Assembly (NCBI GenBank): GCA_951406725.2
Contig: OX597817.1
Location: forward strand, 20,770,001-20,834,000
Direction of reading: 5' to 3'
DNA: 64,000 nt
Origin: Octopus vulgaris
Taxonomy: Eukaryota
Positions within the stretch are counted from its first letter, which is position 1. The number at the start of each line of letters is the position of its first letter. The translations under genes were made by a program, and so were the position numbers. This document shows positions 11,141 through 44,888 of the stretch, piece after piece. The notes beneath the pieces are model-generated. The model saw only the letters and a program-made list of their open reading frames with translations. It searched no databases and was not told where the DNA came from.

Positions 11141-13008
11141 TAATTGATCAAAATAAAAACATGATGCCAAGGATTCAGCGGTACATATGTTTCGGGCCTT
11201 TATTAGACAGATTTATAACAATGCATAATGTATGTCTGTGGCCTTCTTCAGCCGCGCACAACAGCTTCCACAAGGACATGTGTTACATCAAAAATTCTTG
11301 GTTGGGGATGCAAATCCTCTCATTCGCGTACGACATAATGCGGCAACAGCATAGAATTGAAGCGTCCATCTCTTTCTTCTCTCAATGTAGAATGAGGAAA
11401 TTTGGATGTTGAAGTAATGTAAATAAATAAATACATATATAGACGTGAAGATGGAGGGGCGAGAATTCAGGACGAGGGATAAAAAATGTATGTATAAAAA
11501 GTGTAAGTATAGAAAAAATATAAAAATGTAGAGTATAAAGATATAAAGGGATATAAGGAGATGTAAAGGGGGTATAAAGAATATAAAGAAATATAAATGA
11601 ATGTAAAGGCATAAGGTTATAAAGTAAAATAGAAATAGAAATAAAAGTAAAAAGTAAAAAAATAAAAATAGGAATAAACATGATAAAAATGTAAAAAAAT
11701 ATAAAGATAAGGGATGTATAGAGGTTACGGACCAAACATGGTGGTCAGGAGATTGATAAAGTTTAGTTGTAGAAGTTGTCTGGGGACCTAGTGTGTTGTA
11801 AATCAGAGCTGTTGAGCGTTTAATCTAGTTCTTTGAATTAATTGGTCATCTTGTACATACATACCATCATGGATACATACACCCATATACACGCGCACAT
11901 ATACCGCGCATACACGGCTCCAAGCCTATAAGCATACACACGCACTCACGTGTAAACATGTACATAAACACACATACACCCACACGCACGCGCGTACATA
12001 TACATACATACAACAGAATATCCGCATGTATACACGGACATTATACGTGTACACACCCATATATACATACGTGCGTCCATCCTTACATACACATACACAT
12101 ATGCCCACGCTTCCAGGTTTAGATATAAGATATTAAAGGATGTATATAAGAACGTATGTAAAGAATCACGCACTCACGTCCACACGTGCACGCACACACG
12201 GCTGTGTGTCCATATGTGCGTGCACATATACACTTACATACACACACAGAGACATACGCGCATATGGGTATAGCTATAAGATATTAAAAGATGTATACAA
12301 ATAGGTGTAAACATATGAGTATAAGAAAACATGTAAAAAAATGTAAAGAAATACGGGGTATGCACATCCAGACGTAGATGTTTACTCGTACATATGTACA
12401 CATATGTATACGTATACATACGTACACGGACGCTCGTATAATCATAAAGCGGATCCATAGGTAAGTAAATAAGGGATAAGCAAAAAAATAGACATATATA
12501 GAGATATAAAGCGATAAGTTAGGGGTAAGAATGAGGGTAAGAGTAAAAATTAGAAATAAAAGTAAGAAATACAATATAAAATAAGAAATACAATGTAAAA
12601 GTTAGAAATGAAATATAAAAATTATAAAAATTATAAGAATTAAGATAAGGGATGAAAATAAAAATGAGAATAAAGGTAAAGCGAAGTAGAATAGGATAAA
12701 GCAAAATAAAAGTAAAAATAAAAATAAAATAAAATAAAATAAAATAAAATAAAATATAAATATAATTTGGTAAAGTTTAACATGAGATGAAGGTGGTTGG
12801 AAGTTAGAGGTGTGTGTTAAAGGTGCCCACGTAGGGGCGGGCGGGGGGAACTGAAAGTTGGAAGGGTGGGAAGTGGAGTTTGGCGGTGTGCGTTCAACAT
12901 CCGAGTTAGAAATGTGAAAGGGTATAGATATAGGGAAATAAAGAGACTATATAGGAAGGATATGGGTGTAGGAGAAGAAATATGTAGGGAAAAAAAGATG
13001 TATGTATG
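11141..13008 (-). mobile_element. Hammerhead-bearing non-coding retroelement (Penelope-like/retrozyme-like), copy 1
   Basis: 11141-~12040 is closely repeated at 43991-44888; bounded by (TA)n; purine-rich low-complexity body; carries a hammerhead at 11178-11255. Confidence 0.75.
11178..11255 (-). ncRNA. Type I hammerhead ribozyme, canonical core
   Basis: Minus strand: gcgg-CUGAAGA-aggcc...ggccc-GAAA-cauaug-UA-ccgc. Stem I gcgg/ccgc, stem II ggcc/ggcc extended by acaga/ucugu, palindromic stem III ACAUAUGU (11183-11190), GUA triplet; predicted cut between 11182 and 11181. Confidence 0.85.
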
Positions 13009-13168
13009 TATATATATATATATATATATATATATATATATATTGTTATATTTCGGAATGGTCATATTCGGAATGGCCAGTTAAGCCAATAAAAACACAC
13101 GCACTATATATTTGGTTTTATTTTGCTTCAGTGTTATTTATTTTTTACATTAATCTTAAACTTATTTC

Positions 13169-13213
13169 GGTCAGAGTTCTTTCGTCACACTCATGTGACC
13201 GCATCAGTGGTCC
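13169..13213 (-). ncRNA. Degenerate hammerhead-like motif
   Basis: Minus strand: ggacca-CUGAUGC-g-gucaca-ugag-ugugac-GAAA-gaac-UC-ugacc; perfect 6-bp stem II, but A9C and imperfect stems I and III. Confidence 0.4.
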
Positions 13214-14694
13214 TTTGTTTTCTTCTTTCTTATTTGTGTCTCACCTTACTAACCATTAGCCATTTTGTATTTCTATTGTATGTCTTTATTTGCGCATGCT
13301 TATATCTCTATGTGCGTCTATGTTTATTTAGTGTGTGAATGTGGGGAGATGTATACATATATATATATATATATATATTCGTATTACACTCATTTTCCTT
13401 TGCACACGTTACTAAAGGATTTTCAATGTGATTACCGATAAAAGGTAGTGACTCATTCTATGTACAATACATTTGTTGGTGTATTAATATAATCATATGT
13501 AATCATGTTGTATAGTCAACATCAACAGCTTCTGTCCTTTTATATAAACATTCTTTCTAACTTGGGAAGTACTTTAAACAACAAAACTGTTTTGACCAAA
13601 ACTGTTTCGCCTGGAGCACACGTAATTGTCTTTGTCCCTCTGAGAATCGTTTTATATTGAACCAGCCAAGCGTAACTTTAACTTGAAACTTGAATACGCA
13701 TACTAATGACATAAATAGTGCACTGTATTAGATAATCTGGTTGCATCATTTGATAGAATGACGATAATCTTATCAAAACATTACTGGAATTGTACTGAAA
13801 ATCTAATGAAAATAATGCTGTATATCCTTTCATTGCATAAGAGTTACCTACCAATTAACATCCCTTGTCACAGATATGGCACATCATTAAATATTGTCTC
13901 TATCAAGTGATTCCCAGTAGCAAATAAGAATATTTAAGTAGCAGCCCATGGCAAATAGTCTTATTTAGAACTAGTAAGCAACGCGCTATATATAAGACAC
14001 TTTCGGAATCATTCTATAAAGATCTATGTCGGGAAATACTTGGTTAATGAAGATTTTATTTTAGAATTTTTGTGTATATGGATTTCTCTGGATTTTTCAA
14101 TGTGATTACATATACACTGTGATTATATATACATAGTTGGGAATGCGTCTGCACATGTATATGGATTATTAAATAAGAAACACAATCAAAGGAAATTTCG
14201 TGTTCGCTTTCGTGGTAAAATTTATTTACACTGTTTAAGAGAGTATATTTACATTCGTGAGCTGAGAATCTTCATATTAGCGGCAAAATACTTCCCATGA
14301 TAATTTCCATAAACAAATGATTTCAGTTGATACCCTATACCATGTCAAACTTTAAAATTTCCATCGGATATGGTAGAAAAATCTGGTTATAAATCATCTT
14401 GAAATTGTTGTAGCACTGAAGCCATAAGTACGAGTGGAATCTGCTAAATTTTGAAAAGTCATTTAGTGTTAGACAGGGTGTTTCCTACTTCATTATAGTT
14501 TGAGCGAAGCAGAGTTCTGTCAGACGCTATATAGACTGGATGTATAGGAAGCACAAAAAGAAATAGATGTAGAAACAAATAAATAGACACATACCTACAT
14601 ATTTTTGAACACACGCACCCACACAAATGCGTATACACATGAAGTGTTGCAGTGCATCCTATTTATTGTATAACGTTAATTTCATAGACTTTTT

Positions 14695-42682: not shown

Positions 42683-42749
42683 TTTGGGGCCTGAAGATAC
42701 GCCGTAAGGCTAAAACTCTTATGATCGAGAAACGCAGGGTAACCCCAGA
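42683..42749 (+). ncRNA. Type I hammerhead-like motif, partly degenerate
   Basis: tttgggg/ccccaga stem I, CTGAAGA 42691-42697, GAAA 42729-42732, stem III acgcagggt (one mismatch), GUA triplet; stem II poorly paired. Confidence 0.5.
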
Positions 42750-43916
42750 ATCCGACCGCCCTCATTATAATATATATATATATATATACTAATAATTGCG
42801 TCGCCGCATACCGAAGTTCAAAAATAGCAGCCAAAATCTTAGTCATTTCTTGTACTTTAAAAAGGGTCTTCCAGAGAACTCAAAAGTTTAAACACACAGG
42901 CAGAGGTTAAAGCAAACGAAAATCAATCGATATCTGATCATCCGTAGTATTACTAAAATTCACCGTGTTAACGGTCCTGTTTTCATACCGAATCCTACTT
43001 GGTGAAATTTATTGATTACTTCTTAATTAATTAATTTTACCCTTTGTTATTATTGATATATATATATATATATATATAGAGAGAGAGAGAGAGAGAGAGA
43101 GAGAGAGATAAGTAGGTATATGATGTCATATACTGTAATTTAAAAGACCTGTTGCCATCTATCAAAATTTAGTTTCAAATTTATCCAACATTAGACATTA
43201 AAAACGATATTTGTATTGGTAGTTGCTGTAGTCTAATAGCTTAAATTCAGTATATATCGCTTGAAATATACAATCACAAGAAGGAGTTCATATTCATTTT
43301 CATTGATAATTCCCTTGTTATATTGACGATTGAAATTATTTTCTTCAAAGAACCTCTCTCGTGGTTAGTCGCCATCATGTCTCTCAAGTTTTATTGTGAC
43401 TCGTCACCTGATATTTACATTTATCTTCTTTGTCACCACTAGTTCGTGTAAGAATCAAATCGGCGTCTGAAGTTTTTATCTTCATTTGCGTTGTCGTCAA
43501 TTTTTTTCTCCTATGATTCAAAACAAAATGTTTGTATAAAATTTTAATGATTTCTACACATTTATACATTTGATATTCACGGCTCTGTTTACAAGTGAAA
43601 ATTTAATTAAATACATTTTCCTCAGTCGCCTCAAACATAAATATCTTTTGAAAAAAAAAGCAAGTCTTATCATTTATAGAAATAATATCTACGCAACAAA
43701 ATTTTGAAAAGGCCAATGTATTTAAAGAAATCGTTCGTGAGTTTTGCAGTTATGCTTCGTCTCGGACACATACAAATACATGCAGGTATGCCGACAGGCA
43801 AGCAGGCAGACAGGGACCGATATACATATATATATATATAAATATATATATATATATATATATATATATATATATATATATATATATATATATATATATA
43901 TATATATATATATATA

Positions 43917-44888
43917 TAATAAATTCGGGGTGAGTACTTGATAATTATAGGCACCTGTGTATACCGTTTGGTGGTGTAGGTGGTGGAGTAAATTGATCAA
44001 AATAAAATAAAAACATGATGCGAAGGATTCAGCGGTACATATGTTTCGGGCCTTTATTAGACAGATTTATAACAATGCATAATGCATGTCTGTGGCCTTC
44101 TTCAGCCGCGCACAACAGCTTCCACAAGAACATGTGTTACACAAAAAATTCTTGGTTGGTGATGCAAATCCTCTCATTCACGTACGACATAATGCGGCAG
44201 CAGCATAGAATTGAAGCGTCCATCTCTTTCTTCTCTCAATGTAGAATGAGGAAAATTGGATGTTGAGGTAATGTAAATAAATAAATACATATATAGAGGT
44301 GAAGATGGAGGGGCGAGAGTTCGGGACGAGGGATAAAAAATGTATAAAAAGTGTAAGTATAGAATAATATAAAAATGTAGAGGATAAAGATATAAAGAGT
44401 TGTAAGGAGATGTAAAGGGGGTATAAAGAAATATAAAGAAATATAAATAAATGTAAAGGCATAAGGTTATAAAGTAAAAATAGAAATGGAAATAAAAGTA
44501 AAAAAACCTGATAAAAACATGATAAAAGTGTAAAAGAATGTAAAGATAAGGGATGTATAGAGGTTACGGACCAAGCATGGTGGTCAGGAGATTGATAAAA
44601 TTTAGTTGTAGAATTGTCAGTAAATCAACAGTTTCGTCTGGGGACTTAATGCGTTGTAAATCAGAGCTGATGAGCATTTAATCTGGTTCCTTGAATTAAA
44701 TGGACTTCTAGTACATACATATCATCATGGATACATACACCCACATACACGCGTACATATACGCCTCCAAGCCTATAAGCATACACACGCACTCGCGTGT
44801 AAACACGTACATAAACACACACGCACCCACACGCTCGCGCGTACACACACATACATACAACAGAATATCCGCATATATACACGGACAT
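43917..44888 (-). mobile_element. Hammerhead-bearing non-coding retroelement, copy 2
   Basis: Closely matches 11141-12040; (TA)n on both sides; ~70 extra bases at 43917-43990. Confidence 0.8.
44032..44109 (-). ncRNA. Type I hammerhead ribozyme, canonical core (second copy)
   Basis: Same core and stems as 11178-11255; the one visible difference is in the stem II loop region. Confidence 0.85.

What the first reader, a model, noticed from the sequence alone, without database searches (positions are those of the whole stretch)
11141..44888. A ~0.9-1.9 kb non-coding repeat present twice, with its ribozyme almost invariant
Seen: 11141-12040 and 43991-44888 are same-orientation copies 33 kb apart, each in (TA)n. 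The bodies differ by several indels, while the 78-nt hammerheads differ at one loop-region base. The cut site lies ~40 nt from the element end in copy 1; copy 2 has ~70 extra bases there. Inference: a recently active retrozyme-like family whose RNA end is set by self-cleavage.
Basis: partly seen in the sequence, partly recalled or inferred. Interest (0 to 1): 0.7.

Follow-up and report, generated by a model that had tools for sequence, protein, structure and literature searches.

The report
Truncated Hydra-type Penelope retrotransposon ends
The two repeats are cut-short tail ends of a young, protein-coding Penelope-like jumping gene with over a thousand copies in this genome; they stop at two fixed points past the hammerhead's predicted cut site, likely where copying starts, so they are not a ribozyme-trimmed non-coding element.

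Summary
Both copies are 5'-truncated 3' ends (pseudo-LTRs) of an autonomous Hydra-clade Penelope-like element (PLE). Elsewhere in the genome the same sequence follows an 835-842-codon open frame with Hydra motifs and a telomerase-like RT fold. The unit is 4.7-4.8 kb, with at least 879 + 366 hammerhead copies. Copy 1 and copy 2 belong to two subfamilies. No end lies at the hammerhead cut (0 of 64). Ends fall about 40 or about 110 nt past it; the 70-nt difference is the known PLE 'tail', which is the ORF leader. Head-to-head pairs carry one long and one short end in 51 of 52 cases, and 5' ends pile up about 210 nt upstream of the cut. This fits twin priming on uncleaved RNA (inferred). The hammerhead is only weakly more conserved than its neighbourhood. 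No RNA evidence was available. This scan's notes report similar PLE stubs on other DNA. New member of a known kind.

The parts
11142..13004 (-). Copy 1: 5'-truncated 3' UTR/pLTR of the Hydra-clade PLE, subfamily A; starts about 230 nt after the ORF stop; short 3' end (+40 from the cut)
   Evidence: 95.9% to natural full-length copy L037 over 1873 columns; 2 differences from the subfamily A majority, 22 from B
11178..11255 (-). Type I hammerhead of copy 1: stem I 4 bp, CUGAAGA+A core, stem II 4 bp with a 41-nt loop, GAAA, palindromic stem III; predicted cut between 11182 and 11181
11390..11395 (-). Initiator-like hexamer (A at -212 from the cut) at the family's 5'-truncation hotspot; candidate transcription start
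   Evidence: Inr consensus recalled, function inferred
11087..11141 (.). (TA)n target run at the 3' end of copy 1
13005..13041 (.). (TA)n run at the 5' end of copy 1
43991..44888 (-). Copy 2 body: shorter 5'-truncated pLTR, subfamily B
   Evidence: 14 differences from the B majority, 38 from A
43921..43990 (-). About 70-nt PLE tail of copy 2, the same sequence as the leader that follows the pLTR and precedes the ORF in tandem copies; long 3' end (+110)
   Evidence: read-through junctions in L081 and L050/L085
44032..44109 (-). Type I hammerhead of copy 2, with one private loop-2 change; predicted cut between 44036 and 44035
43822..43919 (.). (TA)n target run at the 3' end of copy 2
44889..44940 (.). 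(TA)n run at the 5' end of copy 2

Best explanation
Both repeats are 5'-truncated, ORF-less 3' ends of an autonomous Hydra-clade Penelope-like retrotransposon sitting in (TA)n, and their two alternative ends (about +40 and +110 nt past the hammerhead's predicted cut) likely mark two start sites of target-primed reverse transcription on RNA not cleaved at that hammerhead. Shown: the unit (leader, 836-codon RT + GIY-YIG ORF, about 2-kb low-complexity 3' UTR ending in the hammerhead), the two end classes, the identity of the tail with the ORF leader, the one-long-one-short rule in head-to-head pairs, and the 5'-end hotspot near -210. Inferred: the protein, possibly as a dimer, nicks both strands of a TA run. 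Each nick primes cDNA at one of the two leader sites and copies back through the hammerhead until RT stops or runs off the RNA 5' end. The two cDNAs are joined head to head, or one arm alone survives, as in this window. Inferred: the hammerhead is a weak monomer that would cut as a dimer or with protein help, so its role would be in processing read-through RNA, not in setting the inserted end. Confidence is about 0.95 for identity and about 0.6 for twin priming.
For: ORF directly upstream of the repeat in genomic copies: L037 835 and L044 842 codons open. Direct pLTR-ORF-pLTR units of 4684 and 4797 bp. Hydra motifs RW, DKT, YRDD, CxC-x5-C linker, VIY..YIG, CxxC..E..N..CxH match Craig 2021 section 11. 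AlphaFold model mean pLDDT 83.4; the seven best PDB matches are telomerase RTs, E 1.4e-9 to 1.0e-7. Between subfamilies A and B the ORF has 36 synonymous to 16 nonsynonymous shared changes, versus 34 to 42 private ones, p=0.007. Ends: 34 short, 55 long, 2 read-through of 91; 0 of 64 at the cut in the tail-unbiased set. Outward pairs long+short: 28 of 29, 19 of 19 and 4 of 4. Neither arm is always nested in the other: the short-end arm reaches further 5' in 23, the long-end arm in 18, equal in 10 of 51. Arms are closer to each other (0.63%, 0.47%) than to other insertions (1.36%, 2.47%), and 0 of 48 mix subfamilies. 30 of 107 truncated 5' ends fall in one 20-nt bin, neighbouring bins 3 and 8. 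Frangieh 2024 showed in vitro that the tail lies between two internal RT starts, that both strands are cut and extended, and that hammerhead mutants still insert.
Against: No RNA data: no holder on record as RNA, and contigs cannot show ends. Arm similarity could also come from gene conversion after insertion. The -210 hotspot could be an RT stall or a microhomology site; paired arms are not independent counts, and a 6-mer initiator match is weak. One pair is long+long (C10, same flank on both sides). Pfam, NCBIfam and PDB sequence searches did not recognise the ORF; the GIY-YIG domain rests on motifs, on Craig's alignment read by eye and on one homolog's name, not on a fold match. The motif shared by the two end sites (19 of 5000 shuffles) scores as well at four other places in the unit.
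Confidence: 0.85

Rival explanations
1. A non-autonomous retrozyme family whose RNA and DNA ends are set by hammerhead self-cleavage.
For: The window copies are non-coding, carry a type I hammerhead with a palindromic stem III, and the cofold minimum is the double hammerhead (-35.4 versus 2 x -11.8 kcal/mol). Non-LTR retrozymes are reported to derive from pLTRs (bioRxiv 2026.07.22.740005).
Against: The sequence is contiguous with a selected ORF. 5' ends are ragged from a few nt to over 4 kb. No head-to-tail array of a short hammerhead unit among the loci examined; the 3 direct pairs are two full PLE units and one duplication with flanks. 0 of 64 ends at the cut.
Confidence: 0.03
2. The element is the same PLE, but the template is hammerhead-cleaved and re-ligated (unit-length circle), so RT crosses an intact hammerhead junction on a circle.
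For: It explains read-through of the hammerhead and pairs in which both arms reach into the ORF (L034). Core and stems show 0 fixed changes in 37 positions between subfamilies while flanks change.
Against: The 5'-end hotspot near -210 fits a linear RNA end upstream of the hammerhead. Hammerhead mutants insert normally in the Poseidon system. Read-through transcripts of tandem copies or two RNA molecules explain the same pairs.
Confidence: 0.15
3. The inverted pairs arise by snap-back (self-priming) of one cDNA or antisense template, or by later rearrangement, not by two primings.
For: Arms are near-identical and abut within 10 nt in 42 of 51 pairs. Self-priming on an antisense template was proposed in PMC3846280 (passage).
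Against: In 23 of 51 pairs the tail is on one arm while the other arm reaches further 5', so neither arm contains the other.
Confidence: 0.15
4. The two window copies are part of a local segmental duplication.
For: They are 33 kb apart in the same orientation.
Against: No shared flank; different subfamilies and different ends. Two such copies in one 64-kb window is above the genome average, but I did not test clustering.
Confidence: 0.01

Closest known systems
Hydra clade of C-terminal EN+ Penelope-like elements, including Hydra-1_Obim (Craig et al. 2021, PMC8557442)
   Same: Single RT + C-terminal GIY-YIG ORF with DKT, CxC-x5-C linker, CxxC/CxH around E and N; sense type I hammerhead near the 3' end with one extra base on each side of stem II; (TA)n targeting; inverted 5'-truncated partner copy.
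   Different: A different family: the Hydra-1_Obim protein and hammerhead printed in the supplement differ by eye, and two exact motif searches found 0 hits; the best database homologs are 27-41% identical. Unit 4.7-4.8 kb versus under 3 kb; 3' UTR about 2 kb; three low-complexity inserts in the protein (492-511, 516-549, 631-694); 41-nt loop 2 versus 3-10 nt in the listed Hydra hammerheads; RWA for RWK; tail about 70 nt versus 30-40.
Poseidon_Ac (PAc) internal RT initiation (Frangieh et al. 2024, PMC11167929)
   Same: Tail as the stretch between two internal start points downstream of the hammerhead, near AC-rich sequence; AT-rich target; no ends at the cut site.
   Different: Different clade; there the hammerhead overlaps the start codon, here the first in-frame ATG is at +192; here the evidence is genomic only.
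Adineta vaga Penelope with inverted pLTRs (PMC3846280)
   Same: Tail on one of the inverted pLTRs; Inr-like motif in the pLTR; N-rich inserts in the ORF.
   Different: A handful of copies described qualitatively; here the rule is counted in 52 pairs.
Metazoan non-LTR retrozymes (bioRxiv 2026.07.22.740005; PLE hammerheads in PMC4209133)
   Same: Type I hammerhead with weak palindromic stem III, predicted to work as a dimer; pLTR-related.
   Different: Those are tandem, non-coding units; this is the ragged 3' end of a coding element.

Membership tests
Hydra-clade PLE | Single ORF with telomerase-like RT | tested here: met
   835-842 open codons; the seven best fold matches are TERTs; homolog P0043 hits RVT_1 below cutoff
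Hydra-clade PLE | C-terminal GIY-YIG endonuclease without CCHH, with CxxC and CxH around E and N | tested here: met
   VIY..YIG at 721-738, CxxC..E..N..CxH from 799; motif level only, no separate fold search; CCHH absence judged by eye
Hydra-clade PLE | DKT in place of DKG; RWK motif; CxCX5C linker | tested here: met
   ADKT at 131, CNC-x5-C at 702; RWA rather than RWK, W invariant in 72 of 72 aligned sequences
Hydra-clade PLE | Canonical sense hammerhead near the 3' end | tested here: met
   layout compared with File S2; Rfam gathering scan negative
Hydra-clade PLE | (TA)n insertion preference | tested here: met
   nearly all printed 3' junctions run into TA or CT/TA runs
Hydra-clade PLE | Generally short (under 3 kb); descriptive, not diagnostic | tested here: not met
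   unit 4684-4797 bp, due to a long 3' UTR and protein inserts
Hydra-clade PLE | Phylogenetic placement with reference Hydra RTs | not tested
   reference sequences were seen only in the paper's supplement; compared by eye
EN+ PLE insertion structure | pLTR partial tandem, inverted 5'-truncated copy, one-sided tail | tested here: met
   L081 with L131: inverted copy, pLTR, ORF, pLTR, tail; 51 of 52 outward pairs long+short
Non-LTR retrozyme | Non-autonomous, no coding partner in the unit | tested here: not met
Non-LTR retrozyme | Head-to-tail tandem units each with a type I hammerhead | tested here: not met
   none among loci apart from full PLE units and two duplications with flanks; not a whole-genome census
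Non-LTR retrozyme | Self-cleavage and circular RNA | not testable with these tools
   no RNA holder on record

The most novel reading that the evidence does not exclude
This young family records the PLE copying cycle in DNA. One ribonucleoprotein obligately primes two cDNAs, one per strand of a TA target, from two fixed leader sites 70 nt apart on RNA that starts about 212 nt upstream of an uncut hammerhead. The strict one-tail rule, the palindromic mini-insertions of about 0.55-0.6 kb and lone arms such as the two in this window all follow from it.
Probability: 0.45. Interest if true: 0.55.

Novelty: new member of a known kind. Interest (0 to 1): 0.3.

Why it matters
The two window copies are ordinary transposon stumps. 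The family is useful because it is young, has over a thousand copies and at least one copy with an uninterrupted ORF from the first ATG (L044). Its insertions give counts for questions still open for PLEs: where RT starts, why inverted pairs carry one tail, where the RNA begins, and whether the hammerhead cuts the template. The only full-length PLE protein assayed so far, according to PMC11167929, is a Poseidon; this family would allow the same test in the Hydra clade.

Tried and rejected
Rfam gathering scan: 0 hits. A GIY-YIG-like peptide on the + strand near the hammerhead was an early lead; it is antisense to the real ORF and was dropped. Pfam, NCBIfam and PDB sequence searches with the ORF or its profile found nothing relevant. 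RNA: no RNA holder listed. Four contig-only runs of guessed type were laid; apparent contig ends near the cut and near -219 coincide with variant positions, so they were not used. The end table had an anchor offset and was redone. One search's anchor lies past the cut and cannot see ends at the cut, so that test rests. One search crashed and was rerun. Folding energy alone does not single out the hammerhead (z 0.28 and 0.21); it is the minimum fold of copy 1 (3% of the ensemble) but not of copy 2. Within-subfamily mutation rates by region were not used, because the loci were selected by matches in or near the hammerhead. Leader hairpins after each end are weak (z -1.69, -2.22) and unlike each other. 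A wider hammerhead pattern found other families but gave no covariation test. Paper searches listed no description of this family or a counted one-tail rule; subscription journals, Repbase/Dfam and bioRxiv supplements were not visible.
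Full report
Observation. The copies are real and in the same orientation: 52 substitutions in 876 aligned columns and 11 gap openings. Nothing is shared beyond the TA runs. Copy 1 spans 11142-13004 and copy 2 spans 43921-44888. Each carries a minus-strand type I hammerhead (11178-11255; 44032-44109) that differs at one loop-2 base. Rfam missed it at gathering threshold. For copy 1 the minimum-energy fold is the hammerhead, and the two-strand minimum is the double hammerhead, -35.4 versus 2 x -11.8 kcal/mol. The fold is no more stable than shuffles, and copy 2's change shifts its minimum away from the hammerhead. Weak monomers that work as dimers are described for PLE hammerheads (PMC4209133, passages). 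Cleavage was not tested.

What it is. A 301-nt query gave 1682 candidates in the own genome; the 40 scored were 99-100% identical. Exact patterns count 879 copies of subfamilies A+B and 366 of a third subfamily, C, with 0 control hits. In fetched loci the repeat follows an ORF on the hammerhead's strand: 835 and 842 open codons in L037 and L044. Direct pLTR-ORF-pLTR units measure 4684 and 4797 bp; both of those copies have frameshifts. The protein has the motifs that Craig et al. 2021 give for the Hydra clade (PMC8557442; section 11, passages and parts of the supplement read). It has 399 homologs at E<=0.001, the listed 120 at 27-41% identity. A model from 72 aligned sequences (pLDDT 83.4) matches telomerase RTs best. 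Sequence-profile libraries did not recognise it. Across 669 codons in four A and four B copies, shared changes are 36 synonymous to 16 nonsynonymous and private ones 34 to 42, p=0.007, as expected for lineages that spread under selection on the protein. It is not Hydra-1_Obim (compared by eye). Copy 1 is subfamily A (2 differences from the A majority) and copy 2 is B (14 from the B majority).

The ends. Of 91 distinct ends, 34 stop at +21 to +43 from the cut, 55 at +110 to +128, and 2 read on into the ORF. Part of that set was selected for the tail, and its anchor cannot see ends at the cut. I therefore took loci from the first 100 of 879 pattern hits, selected only on the hammerhead's 5' half: 19 outward pairs, one partner end and 20 apparent solos. 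Five further pairs visible on that contig were left out (two too long, one already held, two for the region cap). Of 64 ends, 0 lie at the cut; the shortest is +21. The 70 extra bases equal the sequence that follows the pLTR and leads to the ATG at +192 in read-through copies. This is the PLE tail, 30-40 bp in the literature. Frangieh et al. 2024 (PMC11167929; parts 1-2 of 4 read) showed in vitro that such a tail lies between two internal RT start sites, that both target strands are cut and extended, and that hammerhead mutants still insert.

Pairs. Outward (head-to-head) pairs have one long and one short end in 28 of 29, 19 of 19 and 4 of 4 found among apparent solos: 51 of 52. The exception has the same flank on both sides. 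Three subfamily C pairs are also long+short by eye. Of the remaining 16 solo loci, 11 are short, 4 long and 1 a short+short duplication. In 51 pairs the short-end arm reaches further 5' in 23, the long-end arm in 18, and they are within 10 nt in 10; 42 junctions abut within 10 nt. In 48 pairs (3 with very short arms dropped) the arms differ by 0.63% (A) and 0.47% (B), against 1.36% and 2.47% between insertions; 45 of 48 are closer than average and none mixes A and B. Two primings from one source fit this best; gene conversion is not excluded. That the tail is usually one-sided is already in print qualitatively.

5' ends. Of 188 ends, 107 are truncated within 680 nt of the cut, and 30 of these fall at -200 to -219, with 3 and 8 in the neighbouring bins (a few duplicates may remain, and paired arms are not independent). 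An initiator-like hexamer has its A at -212 (consensus recalled). The simplest reading is RT running off an RNA that starts there, which implies a template uncut at the hammerhead. A stall site is the alternative.

Is the ribozyme specially conserved? Weakly. Against the whole body p=0.043. Against the rest of the terminal 300 nt (9 substitutions in about 217) it is not significant, about 0.17 by hand's positions. Fixed A-versus-B differences are 0 of 78 in the hammerhead, but also only 2 of 176 just upstream and 0 of 70 in the tail, against 10 of 427 further up. A versus C gives 0 of 37 in core and stems, 3 of 41 in loop 2, 14 of 176 upstream and 3 of 70 in the tail; 16 of the 37 positions were mostly fixed by my search pattern. 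This is compatible with selection on the core but is not proof.

Shared signal at the two ends. A 16-column AC-rich match follows both end sites (19 of 5000 shuffles as good), but four other places in the unit score the same. Each end is followed by a weak hairpin. An earlier scan note on another genome reports twin hairpins behind the two ends; here they are not alike, so this is only loosely consistent.

RNA. No holder is on record as RNA and only contigs were available, so expression and cleavage are open.

Verdict. Ordinary truncated copies of a new, recently active Hydra-clade PLE family that is longer than described members, with a longer tail and loop 2. The bioRxiv preprint on retrozymes (part 1 of 5 and passages; supplements closed) defines them as tandem non-coding units, which this is not. 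Four paper searches listed no description of this family; Repbase, Dfam and subscription journals could not be checked. Interest 0.3, mainly for the counted one-tail rule and the 5' hotspot.

Noticed in passing
window 7013-7960, 9283-9732, 41351-41832, 58529-59034, 62863-63331: A dispersed repeat of about 450 bp, 71-82% identical between copies, often ending in TA runs; looks like an old SINE family (name not checked).
   Followed up: no
window 44939-45118: A 180-bp near-perfect palindrome directly beyond the TA run of copy 2; MITE-like or another fold-back stub.
   Followed up: no
window 61782-62053 and 10810-10962: Palindromic repeat of about 270 bp with a partial second copy upstream of copy 1.
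   Followed up: no
L174, L175, L181 and L171, L172, L176-L178, L182: At least two other hammerhead families in this genome; one keeps the stem II bases with a different long loop and a longer stem III region.
   Followed up: partly
L037:4611 and L044:1220: Two near-full-length copies on one contig begin at the same point, about +156 from the cut, just upstream of the ATG; shared origin or a third preferred break.
   Followed up: no
L083 (G000:C1:19712358-19712826): One inward-facing pair, tail to tail, both ends long; probably two insertions into one TA run.
   Followed up: no
L161 (G000:C1:57296500-57305800): Three same-strand hammerhead copies about 8.15 kb apart with the same flank: element carried in a larger tandem duplication.
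   Followed up: partly
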